Part shown: in pieces, positions 13,929 to 64,000 of the stretch
Layout of the letters: each line of letters begins with the position of its first letter
Numbering within the stretch: position 1 is the first letter of the stretch
NCBI GenBank assembly: GCA_965243495.1
Contig: CBDEUZ010000007.1
Span: 295,743 to 359,742, forward strand
Direction of reading: 5' to 3'
DNA length: 64,000 bases
Source: Dehalococcoidia bacterium
GTDB lineage: Bacteria; Chloroflexota; Dehalococcoidia; UBA6926
The notes under the pieces: generated by a model
Told to the model about the DNA's origin: nothing
Seen by the model: only the letters and a program-made list of their open reading frames with translations
Databases searched by the model: none
Translations under genes and position numbers: made by a program

Positions 13929-14018
<90 letters not shown>

Positions 14019-14028
14019 TCCTAAAGAC

Positions 14029-14120
14029 GGAGAGGTGCTGGAGTGGCCGAACAGGCACGCCTGGAAAGCGTGTAGGGTCTTACCGGGCCCTCGCGGGTTC
14101 GAATCCCGCTCTCTCCGCCA
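14029..14120 (+). tRNA. tRNA-Ser (anticodon GGA)
   Basis: 92-nt class II tRNA. Anticodon loop CUGGAAA, long variable arm, T-loop GGTTCGAAT, encoded CCA. Confidence 0.9.
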
Positions 14121-44670: not shown

Positions 44671-44712
44671 GGTTGCCTCGTTGTCCGTGAGCGCCTCTCC
44701 GATTCGCCGTTT

Positions 44713-45912
44713 CTACTGGATGATGCCGGTGATTACGCCGGATCCAACGGTTCGGCCTCCTTCACGGATGGCGAAACGCAGTCCCTCTTCCATCGCGACA
44801 GGCGTGATGAGTTCGATGCGCATTTCAACGTTATCCCCAGGCATCACCATCTCTGTGCCTTCAGGAAGGTGCGCGGAGCCCGTAACGTCCGTGGTGCGGA
44901 TGTAGAACTGCGGCTTGTAGCCATCGAAGAATGGCGTATGTCGCCCGCCTTCATCTCGCGTCAGAACGTACACCTGCGCCGCCGCCTGGGTATGCGGCGT
45001 GATGGAGCTCGGCCTGGAGACCACCTGCCCCCGCTCCACATCATCGCGCTCAATACCCCGAAGAAGGAGACCGACTGCATCACCCGGCTCCGTCTCGTCG
45101 ACGATCTTATGGAACATTTCAATACCTGTGACGACGGTCTTCCTCTGCTCGCCGAAGCCGACGATCTCGACCTCTTCGCCAACTTTCATGATGCCGCGCT
45201 CGACACGGCCGGTCACGACGGTGCCACGGCCCTTGATGCCAAAGACATCCTCAATGGGCATTAGGAAAGCTTGATCGCGCGGGCGCTCCGGCTCCGGGAT
45301 GTAAGAGTCAACAGCTTCCATCAACTGGAGGATGGAAGCATATTCCGCCGCGCTCGCATCGCTCGCATCGCTCTCCAAGGCCTGCAGGGCGCTTCCGCGG
45401 ATGAACGGGATGTCATCACCAGGGAAGTCGTACGTCGAAAGGAGTTCTCGGACTTCCATCTCGACGAGTTCAAGGAGCTCCTCGTCATCCATCATGTCGA
45501 CCTTGTTGAGGTAGACGACGATGCGGGGAACTTCTACCTGCCGGGCGAGAAGGATGTGCTCTCGCGTCTGAGGCATGGGGCCGTCAGGAGCACTCACAAC
45601 GAGGATCGCGCCATCCATCTGTGCCGCGCCGGTAATCATGTTCTTGATGTAGTCGGCGTGACCGGGACAATCGACGTGCGCGTAATGGCGACTCGCCGTT
45701 TCATACTCGACGTGCGCGATATTAATCGTCACGCCGCGAGCCCGCTCTTCGGGGGCATTGTCGATTGAGTCAAAGGGCCGAAAATCGCTTGTGCCGGCGA
45801 GATTCAGCACCTTGGTGATCGCTGCGGTAAGCGAGGTCTTGCCATGGTCCACGTGACCAATCGTCCCGACGTTGAGATGCGGCTTGTTCCGCACAAACTT
45901 CTGCTTCGCCAT
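44713..45912 (-). CDS. tuf: elongation factor Tu
   Basis: 399 aa, [15 protein letters not shown] and DCPGHADY motifs. Confidence 0.97.
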
Positions 45913-45934
45913 TCCCTCCCGTCCTCCTTCGAGC

Positions 45935-46010
45935 TGGAGCCCACAACCAGATTCGAACTGGTGACCTCGTTCTTACCAAGAACGTGCTCTACCTCCTGAG
46001 CTATGTGGGC
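45935..46010 (-). tRNA. tRNA-Thr (anticodon GGT)
   Basis: 76-nt cloverleaf on the minus strand. Acceptor GCCCACA/TGTGGGC, anticodon loop UUGGUAA, T-loop TTCGAAT, encoded CCA. Immediately upstream of tuf, as thrT-tufB in E. coli. Confidence 0.85.
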
Positions 46011-46083
46011 CTCTCTCTCCTTTCCTGTTTTTCTGCTTCTACTCCATGTATTGTCGTGTCTACGGGCGGCATACGCATGATGC

Positions 46084-46159
46084 TGGAGCCCGAGAGGGGA
46101 TTCGAACCCGCTAACCTGCCGATTACAAATCGGCTGCGCTACCCTTGCGCCACTCGGGC
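46084..46159 (-). tRNA. tRNA-Thr (anticodon TGT), T-stem with one mismatch
   Basis: 76 nt. Acceptor GCCCGAG/CTCGGGC, anticodon loop UUUGUAA, T-loop TTCGAAT, CCA. The T-stem GCGGG/CCCCT has a C-C mismatch, so the call is less certain. Confidence 0.55.
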
Positions 46160-58096: not shown

Positions 58097-58576
58097 TCAG
58101 CGCAGGATGCCCCTTCTTTCCTTGGGTGCGTGGCAATACCACACCCGGCCCGCAATGGCATGACGCGCGACAGGCCCAAATGCGCGACTGTCCCTACTGT
58201 CACCACGATTATCGCCGAGGAGAACGAATTCATCCTCGCCTGTTATCCACTCATCCCTATCGCCGGAATTCGGCCTCGACGGAGCGCGTGAGACATACGC
58301 CTCCGGAAGTGGTTCGCCGTTCACATAGATAGCGCCGTCTACCATCGCGATGCGCTCATTCGGCAGACCGCAGATCCGCTTGATAGATACTCCTCCGGAT
58401 TCGGGTTCGCTGAATGCCACAACGTCACTCCTTTGCGGCACACCACCGGAGAAACGCCGAGACACCAGAACCATGTCGCCCTCCAGAAGATATGGTTCCA
58501 TGCTATGGCCGGTCACGCGGAACCTGAGGGAACTGAACAGATCCAGCAGGCGTGGAGGATGCAGCCACCAGGGCAT
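58097..58576 (-). CDS. sodX: S26-family peptidase, Ni-SOD maturation protease SodX-like
   Basis: 159 aa with Ser/Lys dyad motifs (GHSMEPYLLEGDMVLV ... KRICGLPNERI). It is divergently adjacent to sodN, as in Streptomyces. Confidence 0.8.
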   Translation of the reverse strand: MPWWLHPPRLLDLFSSLRFRVTGHSMEPYLLEGDMVLVSRRFSGGVPQRSDVVAFSEPESGGVSIKRICGLPNERIAMVDGAIYVNGEPLPEAYVSRAPSRPNSGDRDEWITGEDEFVLLGDNRGDSRDSRAFGPVARHAIAGRVWYCHAPKERRGILR

Positions 58577-58607
58577 CAGAAGTGCCCCCCCATGCCCGTG
58601 GCATTCC

Positions 58608-58637
58608 TTGCCCTATGAGTGGGGGCTACCGTACAAT
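58608..58637 (+). promoter_or_regulatory. candidate promoter of sodN (TTGCCC-18nt-TACAAT)
   Basis: Hexamers at 58608..58613 and 58632..58637. A GGAGGAAG Shine-Dalgarno precedes the sodN ATG. Confidence 0.4.
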
Positions 58638-58695
58638 CTTTCACGTTTGAATCCGCTTAAGCCAACTTGAAAACTGGGGACGATAGGAGGAAGAA

Positions 58696-59190
58696 ATGTC
58701 CGCACTCAGTATAGCCCTAAGGGCGATCGAAAGGTTCTCACCCGCCAAGCCGGCGAACGCGCACTGTGATATTCCGTGTGGCATCTATGATCCACACGCG
58801 GCGCAGATTGCGGCTCACACGGTGGTGCGGATGGTGAATCTGATCGAAGATCTGGGCGAGGTTTCAGACGCGGAGTCGCGCAACAAGCTCATACGCTACA
58901 TCGCCGTCAAGGAAGAGCATGCTGAGCTCGCCAAGAAGGAGCTCCGCATCCTGTGGGGCGACTATTTCCGCCCCGAGCACCTGGAGCAGCATCCAAACCT
59001 GCACAACCTGTTCTTCACAGCGATGAAGCAGGGCTCCGCCGCGCGGCAGAGCGTCAGTATGGACAACGCTCAGGCGCTTGTGTCGACGGTGCAGGAGATC
59101 GCTGAGATTTTCTGGGCGACCAAGGGCGCCGAGACATCTCGACAGCCGTCTCGTCAGACTTCCGGCGGGGAGATCGTCTATCCGGCATAA
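58696..59190 (+). CDS. sodN: nickel-containing superoxide dismutase precursor
   Basis: 164 aa. A 23-aa leader is followed by the Ni-hook HCDIPCGIYDP. The rest is co-linear with Streptomyces SodN (…ELAKKELRILWGDYFRPEH…). Confidence 0.9.
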   Translation: MSALSIALRAIERFSPAKPANAHCDIPCGIYDPHAAQIAAHTVVRMVNLIEDLGEVSDAESRNKLIRYIAVKEEHAELAKKELRILWGDYFRPEHLEQHPNLHNLFFTAMKQGSAARQSVSMDNAQALVSTVQEIAEIFWATKGAETSRQPSRQTSGGEIVYPA

Positions 59191-59324: not shown

Positions 59325-59786
59325 TCACGGGTACCCAATGTCTGGATCAAAAGATGGCTCTGAAGCAACCTGTCCGCCGGCGTTTAGGTACCAGCCGTAG
59401 TTGCCGCTCGGGGCGTTCGTTGCGCCGACGTTGAGCGTGGTCTCGGCAGATGTGATATCGGCCGTGGATTCCAGGCCGCCGTGTTCTGCAAGCAGCTCAA
59501 ATGCGAGCCAGGAGCACGTCTCCCCTCCGTCTGAGCCGTCGCATTGATAGCCCGCCGCATTCCCTTCCCGCGGCACGCCAATCTCGCCTGAGAGAGTTGG
59601 CCACTCCGGTTGGGGAAACACCCGGGCCTCCTGGTAGATAGGGATGGCGTCCTGCAGCAGAGAACGATCGGCGTCATGAGCACGTTCGCCGAGGATGCCG
59701 CGAACGGCCGGCGCAAGCAGAATGGCAAGTCCAACCAGAACGATGATGATGATTAGGGCGGATAGTTCCCTTGTGAACCGTCGCAC
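59325..59786 (-). CDS. hypothetical secreted/membrane-anchored protein with a pilin-like N-terminal helix and a C-terminal Cys pair
   Basis: 153 aa. N-terminal RRFTRELSALIIIIVLVGLAILLA resembles, but does not match, a prepilin motif. Disulfide candidate YQCDGSDGGETCSW. Confidence 0.4.
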   Translation of the reverse strand: MRRFTRELSALIIIIVLVGLAILLAPAVRGILGERAHDADRSLLQDAIPIYQEARVFPQPEWPTLSGEIGVPREGNAAGYQCDGSDGGETCSWLAFELLAEHGGLESTADITSAETTLNVGATNAPSGNYGWYLNAGGQVASEPSFDPDIGYP

Positions 59787-59813
59787 GATGGGGCCTTATT
59801 GGGCCGCCGCCGC

Positions 59814-60044
59814 TCAGGAGGCTTCGCGCTTGATTTCCAGGCTCTCGCCGGGGGCGAGCGCAACGCGCTTGACGGTCAAGTTCATCTTCAGAAGCCAGTA
59901 CCAGAGAGTGCCCTTGCTGATCCCGAGTTCTTCGGACATGCCCGGCAATCCAAGTTCGTTGTACATTTCGGGCAAAAGACGCTCGAGGGGGCGCCCATAG
60001 CGCTCCTCAACCTGCTTCATCAGCTTGGTTTTTCCGCGTGCCAT
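59814..60044 (-). CDS. small helix-turn-helix protein
   Basis: 76 aa, predicted HTH (MSEELGISKGTLWYWLLKM). Confidence 0.4.
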   Translation of the reverse strand: MARGKTKLMKQVEERYGRPLERLLPEMYNELGLPGMSEELGISKGTLWYWLLKMNLTVKRVALAPGESLEIKREAS

Positions 60045-60130
60045 ACTGCCTCCGGAGCGTGGCCAGTCTATTCGCGCAGGAGCGGAATTGTCAAGTATTC
60101 TAAGACTGGTTTCAAACCGGGTTCAAAGAC

Positions 60131-60160
60131 TTGACAGATAGAATCTGACCTCAGTAGGAT
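60131..60160 (+). promoter_or_regulatory. sigma70-like promoter of the aro leader (TTGACA-18nt-TAGGAT)
   Basis: Perfect -35 TTGACA at 60131..60136, -10 TAGGAT at 60155..60160. Confidence 0.5.
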
Positions 60161-60169
60161 TTTGGCGTG

Positions 60170-60244
60170 ATGATTGGTGCTGGCTATCGCTATTACGACT
60201 TTAGCTACCCCCTGCGGGGTGGGTTGCCGGCGTCGCTCGTCTGA
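60170..60244 (+). CDS. Tyr/Phe-rich attenuation leader peptide (24 aa, MIGAGYRYYDFSYPLRGGLPASLV)
   Basis: ATG at 60170, codons TAT-CGC-TAT-TAC-GAC-TTT-AGC-TAC at 60185..60208, TGA at 60242. It sits between the promoter and a terminator, upstream of DAHP synthase. Confidence 0.5.
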   Translation: MIGAGYRYYDFSYPLRGGLPASLV

Positions 60245-60270
60245 TTGACGCGCATAGTAGAGAAAAAGGC

Positions 60271-60310
60271 AAAGCCCCCCCGCATCAGTCGGGGGGGCTT
60301 TCCATATATT
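60271..60310 (+). terminator. attenuator terminator hairpin (AAAGCCCCCCC-gcatcagtc-GGGGGGGCTTT)
   Basis: Perfect 11-bp stem followed by a TTTCCATATATT U-rich stretch. The upstream segment GCGGGGTGGGTTGCC (60215..60229) can pair with GGCAAAGCCCCCCCGC as an antiterminator. Confidence 0.5.
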
Positions 60311-60359
60311 CAGGAGTGTTAGAGAGCAAAGGCCGTGTGGCCGGAGGAAAGCGGACGCA

Positions 60360-61382
60360 ATGATCGTCGTAATGCGCACTGACGCAACACAAGAAAACGT
60401 AGACGGCGTTGTCGAGAAGATTCAAGAACTTGGCTATCGGGCCGACGTGGAGCCCGGCGAGTTCACCAGTGTTGTTGCCGTCATCGGTGACACGACTGCG
60501 GGAGGCGATGACGTCCTGAGAATCCTGCCGGGTGTGGATCACGTAGTCCGCATCATGAAGCCGTATAAGCATGTGAGCCGTGATTTTCGAAAGCGGGACA
60601 CCATAGTTGATTTGCCGAATGGCGTGAAAATTGGCCCGAGCGCGCCGGTGGCCATGATGGTGGGACCGTGTGCGGTGGAGTCCGAAGAGCAGGTGCGACA
60701 GGTTGCTGAAATGGACCGGAAACTCGGCTTCACCATTCTTCGCGGCGGCGCGTTCAAGCCACGCACCTCGCCGTACACGTTCCAGGGGCTGGGCCTTGAG
60801 GGACTGCGCATCCTGAGGAATGTCGCAGATGAGTACGGTCTGATGGTCATCACAGAAGTGATGTCTGAGATGGACGTGGAAATGTGCGAGGAATACGCCG
60901 ACATCCTCCAGATCGGCGCTCGCACCATGCACGCGTTCCGGCTGCTCAAGACCGTCGGACAAACGCGCAAGCCGGTTTTGCTGAAGCGCGGATTCCACGC
61001 CACCATCCGCGAGTGGCTGCTGAGCGCTGAGTACATCATCAGCGAGGGCAATTGGAACGTCATCATGTGTGAGCGCGGCATCCGCAGCTTTGACGATGAG
61101 TTCTCACGAAACGTCCTTGATCTGACGGCCGTGCAGATACTCAAAAGAGAGAGCCACCTGCCTGTCGTTGTTGATCCCAGCCACGGCACGGGTGAGCGTG
61201 ATCTGGTAATGCCAATGGCGAAGGCTGCCATCGCAGCAGGAGCGGACGGGCTTATCATCGAAGCGCACCCCGACCCTACGACGGCGCTTTCTGATGGAGC
61301 GCAGTCTCTGCCAGTGGACTGGCTGCCGGAGTTGCAGAAGCAGGTCAACGGCATTGCCAAAGCAATTGGACGGGAGGTCTAG
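60360..61382 (+). CDS. aroF: 3-deoxy-7-phosphoheptulonate (DAHP) synthase, type I-beta with N-terminal regulatory domain
   Basis: 340 aa, KPRTSPYTFQGLG and the (beta/alpha)8 core. GGAGG Shine-Dalgarno. Confidence 0.9.
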   Translation: MIVVMRTDATQENVDGVVEKIQELGYRADVEPGEFTSVVAVIGDTTAGGDDVLRILPGVDHVVRIMKPYKHVSRDFRKRDTIVDLPNGVKIGPSAPVAMMVGPCAVESEEQVRQVAEMDRKLGFTILRGGAFKPRTSPYTFQGLGLEGLRILRNVADEYGLMVITEVMSEMDVEMCEEYADILQIGARTMHAFRLLKTVGQTRKPVLLKRGFHATIREWLLSAEYIISEGNWNVIMCERGIRSFDDEFSRNVLDLTAVQILKRESHLPVVVDPSHGTGERDLVMPMAKAAIAAGADGLIIEAHPDPTTALSDGAQSLPVDWLPELQKQVNGIAKAIGREV

Positions 61383-61475
61383 GGCAAAGGAGTCTCAGCA
61401 TTCTTCGCTGCGCTCGGAATGACATGGCGCGGGGCATGACGTGAGAAGGCGGTGGTCAGTAGAATGCGTAGCAAC

Positions 61476-61562
61476 GGCAGGATGGCGGAGTGGACAAACG
61501 CACCAGGCTGTAAACTTGGCGCCCTAAGGGCTACGGGGGTTCGAATCCCTCTCCTGCCACCA
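61476..61562 (+). tRNA. tRNA-Tyr (anticodon GTA)
   Basis: 87-nt class II tRNA. Acceptor GGCAGGA/TCCTGCC, anticodon loop CUGUAAA, long variable arm, T-loop GGTTCGAAT, encoded CCA. A TAGAAT -10-like hexamer lies 10 nt upstream. Confidence 0.9.
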
Positions 61563-61597
61563 CTCCGCCCTTACCTCATAACGCCCACGAGGCGTGT

Positions 61598-63640
61598 GTG
61601 ATGTTGTTTGAACTTTCAGACGACCTGCTGAAGCGGCACCCAACGTATGTTGTGGGCGTCGTATTCGTGCGTGGCGCGGCCAAGCCCTCCCAAGAAAACG
61701 TCAGCGCACTCCAACGCGCGCTGCAGGAGGCGGCACAGGCTGTGCCCTGGAAGCTTGGCGGGGCCGGGTTGCACGGCCATCCGGCAATTACTCGTTGGGA
61801 GCAGGCCTTTGAGGCAGAGGGAATCAACCCGCGAACTCATATGCCGTCGATCGCGGCCCTCGCCCAGCGGTGCCTGCGCGGCGACTATATTCGGTTAATC
61901 AACACTGCGACAGATATTGCCAACCTTATTTCTTTGAGACACCTCGTCCCCGTCGGAGCGCATGATGTAGATCGGCTGCCGGGAGACATTGCTGTGCGCT
62001 TGAGCACCGAAGGGGACACGTACACGGGTTCCGCTGATGATGAAACCGAAGAACTACCCTCCGGCGAACCCGTGTACGCAACGGGTAGCGATATTCGGAC
62101 CCGTCGCTGGGTATGGCGGCAGGCTGAAGCGGCCATGACGACGCCGGAGAGCAGCACGATCGTCTATCCGGTCGACGGCTTCATGGACGGAACTGCTGAC
62201 CGCGTGGAAACGGCGACCCAGGAGCTGGCGCTGTTAGCCAAGGCTGCCCTGGGCGGAGATGTTTCTTACGGCTATGTGAGCGTCGACAATCCTTCGCTTC
62301 CTGAGGATGATGCTTCGCTGACCCAGGTGAATGAAGTTGAGGCGGCCACTGCCCTGCTATTATCCCTCGGGTCAGCAGATGAAGGCGCCGAATCATACCC
62401 ATCCCCGCCTGCGGATGAGGCGCTCGCCAAATGGTCGCTATCTGATCTACTCCGCCGGGGAATCCTGGACGGCGTGATTGTTGAAGAAGAACTGCAGAAG
62501 GACCTCGATTCTGACCGGCGTCTCACCATCTACGAGGGGTTTGATCCGACAAGCACCAGCCTTCACATCGGCCACTATCTTTCGTTGCGCGTCTTGCGAT
62601 GGTTCCAGTTGCAGGGCCACCGCGTAATCATGCTGTTCGGTGACTTCACTGCCCGCATCGGCGATCCAACAGGCCAATCAGCGGAACGCCAACAACTCAC
62701 GCAAGACCAGGTGCTCGCCAACGCCCAGGAGTGGCAGGCGCAGGTATCACATGTGCTCGACCTGGGTGGAGACAACCCCGTTGAAATCAAGTGGAATGGT
62801 GAATGGCTGGACCGGCTCACACTGCGAGACATGATCGAAATCTCGGCGAACATGACGGTACAACAGCTCATAGAACGGGACATGTTCCAGGAACGACTCT
62901 CACAGCAACGTCCCCTCCATCTACATGAGACGCTTTACCCGCTGCTGCAGGGTTACGACTCTGTGGCGATGAGCGTAGACGCAGAGCTTGGCGGTCGTGA
63001 CCAAATGTTCAATATGATGGTCGGGCGAGACCTTGTACGGAATTACAGTGGCAAGACGAAGCATGTGCTGATGACGCCGCTCATCCCGGGTCTCGATGGC
63101 CGCAAGATGAGCAAGTCATATGGGAACACGGTCGACCTCACCGAGAATTCTGTCGACATGTTCTTCAAACTGACACAGGTGAGCGATGAATTGCTGCCGA
63201 TGTTTATGAGCGTTCTCACGGACACGCCGGACGAGGAGATCGAAGAGATTCGCCTCCGCCTGTCATCTGAGTCCAATCTGCAGGACGCCCGGGAGCGTTT
63301 CGCATGGGCCGTCACAGAGCGCTTGCACGGCGCCGATGAAGCGCAACGAGCGCAGGCAGAATTCACACGTGTGGTGGATGAAGGCAACATGCGACAAGAC
63401 GTGGAGGAGGTATTCCTGAAACCCCCGACGGAGCCTCTGACCATTCTGGACGTTGCAGTGGCGACAGGCCTGGCTACGAGCCGGGGCGATGCACGCCGCC
63501 TCATCCAGCAAGGTGGTCTTGAGATAAACGACCGCCGCCACACCGAGCCCACGCTGCAGCTCTCGCCGGAGGACGTGGAAGGAGCAATCGTCAAGATGGG
63601 CAAGCGCGGATTCGTGCGGATGAAGGTGGATCGCGCATGA
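61598..63640 (+). CDS. tyrS: tyrosine--tRNA ligase fused to an N-terminal solo-B3/4 (PheT editing-like, COG3382-type) domain
   Basis: 680 aa in one frame. Residues ~290-680 are TyrRS (HIGH = LHIGHY, KMSKS = KMSKSYGN, C-terminal S4-like). Residues 1-~270 match B3/4-domain motifs (HMPSIAALAQRCLRG..INTATDIANLISLRHLVPVGAHDVDRLPGDIAVRLSTEGDTYT ... GEPVYATGSDIRTRRWVWRQAE). No candidate start codon separates the two parts. Confidence 0.85.
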   Translation: MMLFELSDDLLKRHPTYVVGVVFVRGAAKPSQENVSALQRALQEAAQAVPWKLGGAGLHGHPAITRWEQAFEAEGINPRTHMPSIAALAQRCLRGDYIRLINTATDIANLISLRHLVPVGAHDVDRLPGDIAVRLSTEGDTYTGSADDETEELPSGEPVYATGSDIRTRRWVWRQAEAAMTTPESSTIVYPVDGFMDGTADRVETATQELALLAKAALGGDVSYGYVSVDNPSLPEDDASLTQVNEVEAATALLLSLGSADEGAESYPSPPADEALAKWSLSDLLRRGILDGVIVEEELQKDLDSDRRLTIYEGFDPTSTSLHIGHYLSLRVLRWFQLQGHRVIMLFGDFTARIGDPTGQSAERQQLTQDQVLANAQEWQAQVSHVLDLGGDNPVEIKWNGEWLDRLTLRDMIEISANMTVQQLIERDMFQERLSQQRPLHLHETLYPLLQGYDSVAMSVDAELGGRDQMFNMMVGRDLVRNYSGKTKHVLMTPLIPGLDGRKMSKSYGNTVDLTENSVDMFFKLTQVSDELLPMFMSVLTDTPDEEIEEIRLRLSSESNLQDARERFAWAVTERLHGADEAQRAQAEFTRVVDEGNMRQDVEEVFLKPPTEPLTILDVAVATGLATSRGDARRLIQQGGLEINDRRHTEPTLQLSPEDVEGAIVKMGKRGFVRMKVDRA

Positions 63641-64000
63641 GTTTCGATAGACCGACGGTCGGATTTCTCCAGCCGGAGGCGACCTTCACCCACCTCGCGG
63701 CCATCGCTCACTTTGGCCGGGACGCCATCTTCGAACCGATGGAGTCGGAGGCAATCTGCCAGGCCGTTCAGCAGGGTGAGATTGAATACGGCGTACTGCC
63801 TATCGAGAACCTGCTTGAAGGGACCGTAGGAGCGACGCTGGACTTCGTGACGGCGACGGAGGGTATCAATGTGGTGGCTGAAGTCTTCTTGCCCATTCAC
63901 CACCACCTGCTGACCAAGACATCACTGGAACAGGTAACACGCATCTACTCACATCCGCAGGCATTGAGCCAGTGCCGGCGGAGCATCCGGCGCTTGTCGG
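63637..64000 (+). CDS. pheA: prephenate dehydratase (N-terminal part, continues past the window end)
   Basis: The ATG overlaps the tyrS TGA (ATGA). PDT N-terminal motif VGFLQPEATFTHLAA. Confidence 0.85.
   Translation, partial: MSFDRPTVGFLQPEATFTHLAAIAHFGRDAIFEPMESEAICQAVQQGEIEYGVLPIENLLEGTVGATLDFVTATEGINVVAEVFLPIHHHLLTKTSLEQVTRIYSHPQALSQCRRSIRRLS

What the first reader, a model, noticed from the sequence alone, without database searches (positions are those of the whole stretch)
60131..64000. Co-directional tyrosine-themed gene string
A Tyr-rich leader/attenuator, aroF (DAHP synthase), tRNA-Tyr(GTA), B3/4-tyrS and pheA (start overlapping the tyrS stop) all lie on the + strand. Spacers are short and a tRNA is embedded. 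This suggests one regulon coupling tRNA-Tyr charging status to aromatic biosynthesis, tRNA-Tyr supply and its synthetase. Embedding a tRNA gene between an attenuated biosynthetic gene and its cognate synthetase is unusual.
Basis: inference. Interest (0 to 1): 0.6.

Follow-up and report, generated by a model that had tools for sequence, protein, structure and literature searches.

The report
Tyrosine/phenylalanine attenuator heading aroF–tRNA-Tyr–tyrS–pheA string
A Dehalococcoidia-type bacterium keeps the first aromatic-pathway enzyme behind a classical Tyr/Phe leader-peptide attenuator, followed on the same strand by tRNA-Tyr, its synthetase and pheA; the layout is conserved in this clade but the mechanism is a familiar one.

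Summary
They are a 25-codon Tyr/Phe-rich leader ORF with a hairpin, a type Iβ DAHP synthase, tRNA-Tyr(GTA), a B3/4–TyrRS fusion, and pheA starting in an ATGA overlap with the tyrS stop.

- **Attenuator.** Comparison with about 9 divergent Chloroflexota lineages shows a genuine ribosome-mediated attenuator. Each lineage has a perfect TTGACA promoter, a leaderless aromatic-rich mini-ORF, a covarying terminator, and an antiterminator strand inside the 3' part of the ORF.
- **Gene order.** aroF–tRNA-Tyr–tyrS–pheA is kept in 7 lineages, one of them with a 2.6-kb insertion. tRNA-Tyr lies 20–73 nt upstream of tyrS in 10 lineages and beside none of 66 tyrS loci outside the Chloroflexota-type group.
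- **Operon structure.** No hairpin-plus-U terminator separates the genes. A -10 box fixed 9–10 nt before the tRNA, together with loci where the modules occur apart, points to a second promoter.

I read the string as a composite two-promoter operon. The "single regulon" idea is only partly supported. The leader senses Tyr and Phe, not Tyr alone. The nearest precedent is Corynebacterium aroR–aroF, so this is a new member of a known kind.

Side observation: the TyrRS N-domain resembles the CtdA aminoacyl-tRNA deacylase, and I found no paper describing such a fusion.

The parts
60131..60160 (+). Promoter P1 (TTGACA, 18-nt spacer, TAGGAT). It places the transcription start at or next to the leader start codon.
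   Evidence: The same architecture (perfect TTGACA, 17-18 nt spacer, TAnnnT, start codon 4-10 nt after the -10) is found in all 10 lineages examined.
60167..60244 (+). Leader peptide ORF of 25 codons. Control codons are Tyr7, Tyr9, Tyr10, Phe12 and Tyr14 (60185-60208). Translation is probably leaderless.
   Evidence: Aromatic-rich leaders are conserved in 9 lineages, with synonymous TAT/TAC changes.
60214..60226 (+). Antiterminator strand (region 2, GCGGGGUGGGUUG, codons 16-20). It pairs with the 5' arm of the terminator. It also forms a 7-bp hairpin with region 1 (60205-60211).
   Evidence: duplex -18.2 kcal/mol. An equivalent partner lies 3' of the aromatic codons, inside the ORF, in 8 of 9 lineages.
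60271..60310 (+). Attenuator terminator: 12-13 bp hairpin at 60271-60301, then CCAUAUAUU. The three U of the CUUU stretch close the stem, so the U-tract is weak in this genome. Relatives have 4-7 U.
   Evidence: Covariation: 6 of 12 pairs change on both sides, and 0 of 500 shuffles reach the observed values.
60343..60347 (+). Strong Shine-Dalgarno sequence (GGAGG) of aroF, preceded by a small conserved GGCC-N4-GGCC hairpin at 60331-60342.
   Evidence: Read directly from the sequence.
60360..61382 (+). aroF: DAHP synthase type Iβ with an N-terminal ferredoxin-like regulatory domain.
61436..61465 (+). Putative internal promoter P2 (ATGACG-18-TAGAAT). The -10 lies 10 nt before tRNA +1 and is followed by GCG.
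   Evidence: The -10-like hexamer keeps its position in 10 of 12 loci. The -35 is weak.
61476..61562 (+). tRNA-Tyr (anticodon GTA), with a long variable arm and an encoded CCA.
61601..63640 (+). tyrS. The N-terminal CtdA-like B3/4 domain is roughly 61796-62212, the class I catalytic domain (HIGH and KMSKS motifs) roughly 62513-63370, and the S4-like C-terminal domain roughly 63428-63613.
63637..64000 (+). pheA (prephenate dehydratase). The start overlaps the tyrS stop (ATGA). The gene is truncated by the window end. Relatives encode 293 aa with PDT plus ACT domains.

Best explanation
The string is a composite operon with two inputs.

Input 1, the attenuator:
- A sigma-70-type promoter (60131-60160) starts a transcript whose extreme 5' end is a 25-codon leader ORF rich in Tyr and Phe codons.
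- If Tyr-tRNA and Phe-tRNA are plentiful, the ribosome runs through codons 16-20 (region 2) to the stop codon. This keeps region 2 unavailable, so the 60271-60301 hairpin forms and transcription stops before aroF.
- If charged tRNA-Tyr or tRNA-Phe is scarce, the ribosome stalls at codons 7-14. Region 2 then pairs with the 5' arm of the terminator, the terminator cannot form, and RNA polymerase reads into aroF.

Input 2, the downstream unit:
- No terminator follows aroF, so read-through transcripts probably continue into tRNA-Tyr, tyrS and pheA.
- That unit also has its own tRNA-type promoter, with a -10 box 10 nt before the tRNA. This would give basal expression of the tRNA and the synthetase.
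- tRNA-Tyr and tyrS are only 38 nt apart, so they must be made as one precursor and separated by tRNA processing.
- tyrS and pheA are translationally coupled through the ATGA overlap.

Protein-level feedback by Tyr/Phe on the ferredoxin-like domain of DAHP synthase, and by Phe on the ACT domain of PheA, is expected from what is known of these domain families.

Shown here: the anatomy, its conservation, and the alternative pairings in silico. Inferred: translation of the leader, regulated read-through, promoter activity, and co-transcription.
For: Leader:
- It is the only one of 596 small ORFs in the window with 5 Tyr/Phe in 8 codons.
- Aromatic-rich leaders are conserved in 9 lineages although their sequences diverge: YRYYDFSY, YRYYAF, YSEYYAF, YYYFAFTY, FAFIYPRF, YDFKEYFIYY, YQTFKYYFMY, WTHRWRRF...YPFIF and YAYYYFYF.
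- All 10 loci have a perfect TTGACA -35, and the leader start codon lies 4-10 nt after the -10.

Terminator and antiterminator:
- A strong hairpin is present in every lineage, with a U-run after it, weakest in the window lineage. It covaries.
- With the RNA truncated before the 3' arm, the 5' arm pairs with a segment of the leader ORF when a ribosome is placed on the aromatic codons. It is left largely free when the ribosome is at the stop codon. This holds in 7 of the 8 lineages folded (L083 is ambiguous).
- The partner sequences covary: GGGGUGGG/CCCCCCC, GGGAGUGG/CCCUCCC and GCCGGCGG/CCGCCGGC.

Operon structure:
- No T-box or other Rfam family matches the region.
- Synteny is conserved.
- No hairpin-plus-U terminator lies in the aroF-tRNA or tRNA-tyrS spacers of any lineage, including the AT-rich ones where the attenuator terminator is canonical.
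- The -10 before the tRNA keeps a fixed position.
- A tRNA-mRNA tandem exists elsewhere in the window: tRNA-Thr lies 22 nt upstream of tuf.

Precedent: the aroR leader (Phe-Tyr-Phe) attenuates aroF in Corynebacterium glutamicum (PMC11802643).
Against: - There are no transcript data of any kind.
- The U-tract in this window is poor (three U at the stem end, then CC), although relatives have 4-7 U.
- When the full leader is folded, the terminator is always the minimum-energy structure, so the model depends on kinetic, co-transcriptional folding.
- In G+C-rich lineages the antiterminator duplex is only modestly better than shuffled controls (24-85 of 500). It is weak in L090.
- In the ribosome-free truncated RNA the antiterminator already forms, so there is no trp-like 'superattenuation' state.
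- The -35 of the tRNA promoter is weak.
- G+C-rich hairpins without U-runs follow the aroF stop in the window, L081 and L084. They could act as partial terminators.
- In L082 two genes sit between aroF and the tRNA.
Confidence: 0.65

Rival explanations
1. There are two fully independent transcription units. The attenuator controls only a monocistronic aroF. tRNA-Tyr-tyrS-pheA is expressed solely from its own promoter, and adjacency to aroF is inherited gene order with no regulatory coupling.
For: - A -10 box is conserved before the tRNA.
- The modules are separable: L082 has an insertion, and L004, L006 and L096 lack aroF upstream.
- G+C-rich hairpins follow the aroF stop in some lineages.
Against: - No hairpin-plus-U terminator follows aroF in any lineage. 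This includes the AT-rich ones, where the attenuator terminator is textbook and the scan finds no other promoter or terminator on the + strand of the string.
- Spacers are only 33-93 nt.
- The order is kept in 7 lineages down to about 54% TyrRS identity.
- L097 again links an aromatic-leader DAHPS operon to tyrS.
Confidence: 0.25
2. The leader region is a T-box, a metabolite riboswitch or a protein-dependent antiterminator, not a translated attenuator, and the small ORF is incidental.
For: A terminator hairpin upstream of a biosynthetic gene fits any antitermination mechanism. The ribosome-free truncated RNA already prefers the antiterminator.
Against: - No T-box or any other Rfam family matches at E up to 10.
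- What is conserved across lineages is the Tyr/Phe codon cluster, the reading frame and the placement of the stop codon, not the nucleotide sequence. TAT/TAC changes are synonymous.
- The start codon sits at the predicted transcription start in all 10 loci.
Confidence: 0.05
3. The embedded tRNA-Tyr is more than a passenger. The unprocessed tRNA moiety of the tRNA-tyrS precursor acts as a cis operator that TyrRS binds, as in thrS-type autoregulation but with a real tRNA. Its binding or processing would set tyrS-pheA translation.
For: - tRNA-Tyr is kept 20-73 nt upstream of tyrS in 10 lineages down to 40% TyrRS identity, and beside none of 66 tyrS loci outside the Chloroflexota-type group.
- tyrS has only a weak Shine-Dalgarno sequence in most lineages.
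Against: - The tRNA-tyrS spacer has no conserved sequence or structure.
- Simple co-transcription from a tRNA promoter explains the adjacency, as for tRNA-Thr-tuf in the same window.
- Nothing tested here bears on TyrRS binding.
Confidence: 0.08

Closest known systems
Corynebacterium glutamicum aroR-aroF leader-peptide attenuator (Neshat et al. 2014, as summarised in PMC11802643)
   Same: A short leader peptide with consecutive aromatic codons (Phe-Tyr-Phe) lies upstream of a DAHP synthase gene. Ribosome stalling at these codons increases transcription of aroF.
   Different: - It is in a different phylum, and I found no sequence relationship.
- The leader here carries more control codons (4 Tyr and 1 Phe in 8 codons).
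- The C. glutamicum element responded to Phe but not Tyr.
- Here aroF is followed by tRNA-Tyr, tyrS and pheA.
Escherichia coli pheL-pheA and pheM-pheST attenuators
   Same: These are classical leader-peptide attenuation by aromatic (Phe) codons. In pheST an aminoacyl-tRNA synthetase operon is under such control.
   Different: - Those leaders use Phe only.
- There is no Rfam Phe_leader hit here.
- Here the synthetase lies downstream of a biosynthetic gene and of its own tRNA gene, and it probably has a second promoter.
Bacillus-type T-box control of tyrS and aromatic genes
   Same: The physiological logic is the same: expression responds to the charging state of tRNA-Tyr.
   Different: T-box RNA binds uncharged tRNA directly, with no translation (my own knowledge). 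No T-box is detectable here. Sensing here is by a stalled ribosome.
tRNA-mRNA co-transcription units such as E. coli thrU-tyrU-glyT-thrT-tufB
   Same: tRNA genes lie directly upstream of a translation-factor gene, are transcribed together and are separated by tRNA processing (my own knowledge). The same window has tRNA-Thr 22 nt upstream of tuf.
   Different: Here the downstream gene is the cognate synthetase of the tRNA, followed by a biosynthetic gene. I found no paper describing such a pairing.
CtdA canavanyl-tRNA deacylase, a standalone B3/4 protein (PDB 9f7e; PMC12449066)
   Same: It is the best solved-structure match of the TyrRS N-domain (E 2e-10). CtdA pocket residues N105, G116 and W171-R172-Q173 align with N109, G120 and W173-R174-Q175, which are invariant or nearly invariant in the fusion family.
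   Different: - The domain is fused to TyrRS, not free-standing.
- CtdA C166, which is important for canavanine specificity, is Thr here.
- The substrate is unknown.

Membership tests
Ribosome-mediated (leader-peptide) transcription attenuator | A short ORF with clustered codons for the regulating amino acid(s), upstream of the regulated gene | tested here: met
   25 codons, with 5 Tyr/Phe in 8 codons. It is unique among 596 small ORFs in the window.
Ribosome-mediated (leader-peptide) transcription attenuator | An intrinsic terminator between the leader ORF and the structural gene | tested here: met
   A 12-13 bp G+C-rich hairpin at 60271-60301. The U-tract is weak in the window and has 4-7 U in relatives. 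Six of 12 pairs covary.
Ribosome-mediated (leader-peptide) transcription attenuator | A mutually exclusive antiterminator whose formation depends on ribosome position | tested here: met
   In silico only. Region 2 (codons 16-20) pairs with the 5' arm of the terminator when the ribosome is on the aromatic codons. The arm is largely free when the ribosome is at the stop codon. This holds in 7 of 8 lineages. Significance against shuffles is modest in G+C-rich lineages.
Ribosome-mediated (leader-peptide) transcription attenuator | Conservation of the ORF, control codons and alternative structures in orthologous loci | tested here: met
   Nine lineages, with DAHPS identity down to 47%, plus a further locus (L097).
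Ribosome-mediated (leader-peptide) transcription attenuator | Read-through that responds to the supply of charged tRNA | not testable with these tools
   This needs Term-seq, reporter or in vitro assays.
T-box riboswitch / described Rfam amino-acid leaders | A match to the covariance model (T-box, Phe_leader, Trp_leader and so on) | tested here: not met
   cmscan of 59700-64000 at E up to 10 returned only the tRNA and chance-level hits.
Single operon (one transcription unit from leader to pheA) | Same strand, short spacers, and no internal intrinsic terminator | tested here: met
   Spacers are 93 nt, 38 nt and a 4-nt overlap. No hairpin-plus-U site lies between the genes in the window, L001, L003 or L090. 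U-less hairpins after aroF are not excluded as terminators.
Single operon (one transcription unit from leader to pheA) | No internal promoter | tested here: not met
   A -10-like hexamer lies a fixed 9-10 nt before tRNA +1 in 10 of 12 loci. A promoter-like site is at 61436-61465.
Single operon (one transcription unit from leader to pheA) | One transcript spanning all the genes | not testable with these tools
   No transcriptome data are available.
DAHP synthase type Iβ with a ferredoxin-like regulatory domain | The catalytic and N-terminal regulatory domains score above curated thresholds | tested here: met
   PF00793 at 271 bits, PF18152 at 62 bits, and NF006421 at 445 bits against a cutoff of 335.
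Bacterial tyrosyl-tRNA synthetase | tyrS equivalog model above cutoff, and HIGH and KMSKS motifs present | tested here: met
   TIGR00234 at 326 bits against a cutoff of 114. HIGH and KMSKS are visible in the alignment.
CtdA/B3-4 aminoacyl-tRNA deacylase | B3/4 domain with conserved pocket residues (Asn, Gly, W-R-Q) | tested here: met
   PF03483 at 70.8 bits against a cutoff of 29.3. CtdA 9f7e matches at E 2e-10. N109, G120 and W173-R174-Q175 are invariant or nearly invariant, matching N105, G116 and W171-Q173 of CtdA.
CtdA/B3-4 aminoacyl-tRNA deacylase | The Cys166 specificity residue, and canavanyl-tRNA deacylase activity | tested here: not met
   The aligned position is Thr. Activity cannot be tested here. 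I therefore call the domain 'CtdA-like' and do not file it as a CtdA.

The most novel reading that the evidence does not exclude
The tRNA-Tyr gene may be held 20-73 nt in front of tyrS because the precursor itself is regulatory. Under this reading the unprocessed tRNA moiety is bound by TyrRS, or its processing or charging state is read out. That would set translation of tyrS-pheA and would be a thrS-like autoregulatory operator built from a real tRNA. In the same module, the CtdA-like N-domain would make this the first TyrRS with a built-in aminoacyl-tRNA editing domain, acting on a mischarged tRNA-Tyr species such as a Tyr analogue.
Probability: 0.1. Interest if true: 0.75.

Novelty: new member of a known kind. 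Interest (0 to 1): 0.45.

Why it matters
- **Reach of the mechanism.** It extends classical leader-peptide attenuation of aromatic biosynthesis to Chloroflexota (Dehalococcoidia and relatives). I found no such element described for this phylum and none is modelled in Rfam. It also gives a ready comparative data set of nine divergent leaders with covarying terminator and antiterminator.
- **A conserved supply module.** The first pathway enzyme, the tRNA, its synthetase and a branch enzyme sit together. This is useful for annotating largely uncultured genomes and for inferring Tyr/Phe prototrophy and its regulation.
- **The tRNA-Tyr/tyrS pairing and the TyrRS fusion.** These are the parts a specialist would find less expected. 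The fusion may hint at the unknown specificity of the uncharacterised Chloroflexi-type CtdA relatives (the CtdA-2 clade, PMC12449066).

Tried and rejected
- **T-box or known leader RNA.** cmscan at E up to 10 found nothing, so I rejected this.
- **Full-length folding.** Minimum-energy folding of the full leader, with the ribosome masked, always returned the terminator, because it is a near-perfect G+C-rich stem. That is uninformative for a kinetic switch. I replaced it with folding of RNA truncated before the 3' arm.
- **Counting antiterminator pairs.** MAFFT does not keep region 2 in register across lineages, and my first pair mapping was wrong. I abandoned that count and used per-lineage duplexes against shuffles instead. 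L097 initially looked negative because I had cut the arm too short. By eye, GCUGCCGG in its ORF pairs with CCGGCAGC at the terminator top.
- **Hairpin as a minus-strand terminator.** The scan flags it on the minus strand because of the upstream A-run. I rejected this because no minus-strand gene converges on it, and relatives carry 4-7 U on the plus strand.
- **Genome-collection scan with the TyrRS alignment.** It was saturated by ordinary TyrRS genes and returned only about 8 relevant loci. The other loci turned out to be a useful negative control.
- **Exact look-ups.** P0001 and P0037 were not on record.
- **Other attenuators in the window.** A crude scan found none, but the heuristic also misses the aroF one because of its short U-run.
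- **Literature searches.** I found nothing on a Chloroflexi aromatic attenuator, on tRNA-Tyr/tyrS adjacency, or on a B3/4-TyrRS fusion.

Full report
**Observation.**
- A sigma-70-like site (TTGACA-18-TAGGAT) lies at 60131-60160.
- Six bases after the -10 begins a 25-codon ORF, 60167-60244, encoding VMIGAGYRYYDFSYPLRGGLPASLV.
- A 12-13 bp G+C-rich hairpin follows at 60271-60301.
- aroF (60360-61382) has a GGAGG Shine-Dalgarno sequence. It is a type Iβ DAHP synthase with the N-terminal ferredoxin-like regulatory domain.
- tRNA-Tyr(GTA) is at 61476-61562.
- tyrS (61601-63640) combines a B3/4 domain with a complete class I TyrRS.
- The pheA ATG at 63637 overlaps the tyrS stop and matches prephenate dehydratase.

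The leader is the only one of 596 small six-frame ORFs in the window with five Tyr/Phe in eight codons. The chance per 8-codon window is about 2e-5.

**Source organism.** The TyrRS matches proteins from Dehalococcoidia/Chloroflexota metagenome-assembled genomes. The identical protein comes from a 1.98-Mb contig. No name is attached to it.

**The leader is a ribosome-mediated attenuator.** I collected related loci through TyrRS and DAHPS homologues. Nine distinct lineages carry a small ORF upstream of the DAHP synthase gene. Only three features of that ORF are conserved: an aromatic codon cluster, its frame, and its position. The lineages have DAHPS identity to the window ranging from 93% down to 47%, plus a separate 4.1-Mb genome.
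- The clusters read YRYYDFSY, YRYYAF, YSEYYAF, YYYFAFTY, FAFIYPRF, YDFKEYFIYY, YQTFKYYFMY, WTHRWRRF...YPFIF and YAYYYFYF.
- Close relatives differ by synonymous TAT/TAC changes.
- All ten loci have a perfect TTGACA, a 17-18 nt spacer and a TAnnnT -10, with the leader start codon 4-10 nt later. The leader is therefore most likely translated from a leaderless transcript.
- Each lineage has a strong hairpin after the ORF. The AT-rich marine relatives show textbook terminators with 6-7 U. The window's own U-tract is the weakest.
- The hairpin covaries: 6 of 12 pairs change on both sides, and 0 of 500 shuffles reach the observed measures.

**Alternative pairing.**
- Folding the complete leader always gives the terminator. 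This is expected for a kinetic switch and is uninformative.
- I then folded the RNA as it exists before the 3' arm is transcribed. In seven of the eight lineages folded, the 5' arm of the terminator pairs with a segment of the leader ORF when a ribosome is placed on the aromatic codons. In the window that segment is codons 16-20, at 60214-60226. The arm is left largely free when the ribosome sits at the stop codon. L083 is ambiguous.
- The partner strands covary with the terminator arms: GGGGUGGG/CCCCCCC, GGGAGUGG/CCCUCCC and GCCGGCGG/CCGCCGGC.
- Against shuffles the duplex is strongly significant in L003 and L093, modest in G+C-rich lineages and weak in L090. The constant position of the partner is the stronger argument.
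- No T-box or other described leader family matches.
- The mix of Tyr and Phe codons, with occasional Trp, means the element reports aromatic aminoacyl-tRNA supply in general. That fits the first common pathway enzyme.
- The nearest precedent is the aroR (Phe-Tyr-Phe) leader of aroF in Corynebacterium glutamicum (PMC11802643).

**Gene order and the tRNA.**
- aroF-tRNA-Tyr-tyrS-pheA recurs in the window group (L001, L086) and in L081, L083, L084, the L003/L087-089 group and the L090-092 group. L082 has the same order with two extra genes between aroF and the tRNA.
- The L003 and L090 groups have the same order but a TyrRS without the B3/4 domain. The fusion is therefore independent of the gene string.
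- tRNA-Tyr lies 20-73 nt upstream of tyrS in ten lineages. These include L004 and L096, whose fusion TyrRS is only 40% identical, and L006.
- It is absent from 66 tyrS loci outside the Chloroflexota-type group returned by the same scan.
- The adjacency is therefore selected and clade-specific.
- At 20-73 nt there is no room for a separate promoter, so tRNA and tyrS must be made as one precursor.
- The same window holds the classical analogue: tRNA-Thr lies 22 nt upstream of tuf.

**One unit or two?**
- No hairpin-plus-U terminator occurs between aroF and the tRNA, between the tRNA and tyrS, or between tyrS and pheA, in the window, L001, L003 or L090.
- In the AT-rich loci the leader promoter and the attenuator terminator are the only strong plus-strand signals of the string. 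This favours read-through.
- Against a single unit, a -10-like hexamer (TAGAAT, TAAGAT, TACAAT or TAAACT) sits a fixed 9-10 nt before tRNA +1 in 10 of 12 loci. In several it is followed by GCG, and the -35 is weak.
- The modules also exist apart (L082, L004, L006, L096, L097).
- G+C-rich hairpins without U-runs follow the aroF stop in some lineages. I cannot exclude that they act as partial terminators.
- My reading is a composite operon. The attenuator gates aroF, read-through adds to a basal tRNA-type promoter that drives tRNA-Tyr-tyrS-pheA, and tyrS and pheA are translationally coupled.

**The TyrRS fusion (side finding).**
- The fusion is widespread among Chloroflexota-type sequences, down to 38% identity.
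- Its N-domain matches the standalone deacylase CtdA (9f7e, E 2e-10) better than it matches the PheRS beta subunit.
- CtdA pocket residues N105, G116 and W171-R172-Q173 (PMC12449066) correspond to invariant or nearly invariant N109, G120 and W173-R174-Q175 in the fusion family.
- CtdA C166 is Thr here.
- That paper notes an uncharacterised CtdA-2 clade in Chloroflexi. I found no paper mentioning a TyrRS fusion.
- An editing function on tRNA-Tyr is plausible but untested.

**Verdict.**
- The mechanism is a classical one, found here in a phylum where I found no description of it, so I rate it a new member of a known kind.
- The unusual aspects are the conserved cognate tRNA-synthetase tandem and the deacylase-like domain on TyrRS. 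Both need experiments.

Noticed in passing
window 61601-62350 (+): The N-terminal domain of TyrRS is CtdA-like. Its best solved match is canavanyl-tRNA deacylase 9f7e, and the Asn, Gly and W-R-Q pocket residues are conserved, but CtdA C166 is Thr here. TyrRS is generally regarded as lacking an editing domain (my own knowledge), and I found no paper describing this fusion.
   Followed up: partly
window 44700-46159 (-): tRNA-Thr(tgt), then tRNA-Thr(ggt), then EF-Tu (tuf) starting 22 nt after the second tRNA. This is the classical tRNA-tuf co-transcription layout and a local precedent for tRNA-mRNA tandems in this genome.
   Followed up: partly
window 60331-60347 (+): A small hairpin, GGCC-GTGT-GGCC, lies immediately 5' of the aroF GGAGG Shine-Dalgarno sequence. 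It is kept with compensating changes in L081 (GGGCC-ACG-GGCCC) and L082 (GGCC-AATT-GGCC). It may be a 5'-end stabiliser or may keep the Shine-Dalgarno sequence exposed.
   Followed up: no
window 59325-60044 (-): A 76-aa protein with only a faint helix-turn-helix hint (Pfam E 0.01-0.1) and a 153-aa protein with no family are transcribed divergently, back-to-back with the leader promoter. The pair is conserved in L081 and L082 (the adjacent intergenic sequence is also kept in L001) but is absent in L083, L084 and L003, so it is not part of the attenuator.
   Followed up: partly
window 61563-61600 and equivalents in the loci: tyrS has only weak Shine-Dalgarno-like sequences (GAGG, AAGG, AGG or none) in spacers of 20-73 nt, whereas aroF always has GGAGG or AGGAG.
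   Followed up: partly
L097 1430-6221: A 4.1-Mb Chloroflexota-type genome has an aromatic leader (MRISGRYAYYYFYFTG...) and terminator ahead of DAHP synthase, an Rce1-like gene, trpA, chorismate mutase and tyrS. There is no tRNA and no B3/4 domain. This is another linkage of tyrS to an attenuated aromatic operon.
   Followed up: partly
L096 4892-11519: Downstream of tRNA-Tyr and B3/4-tyrS lie a 741-aa pyridoxal-dependent decarboxylase and a 690-aa alanine-dehydrogenase-like protein fused to a YbaK-type tRNA_edit domain. tRNA-Cys and tRNA-Gly lie upstream on the opposite strand.
   Followed up: no
L082 3232-5796: A 189-aa protein with no family and a 657-aa SNF2-family helicase are inserted, co-directionally, between aroF and tRNA-Tyr.
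   Followed up: no
window 58097-59190: A nickel superoxide dismutase gene lies next to a divergently oriented S26-family peptidase. This is the known sodN/sodX-type pairing (my own knowledge), and it is conserved in L081 and L082.
   Followed up: no
window 13929-14120 (+): Two tRNA-Ser genes (cga and gga) lie in tandem, 10 nt apart.
   Followed up: no
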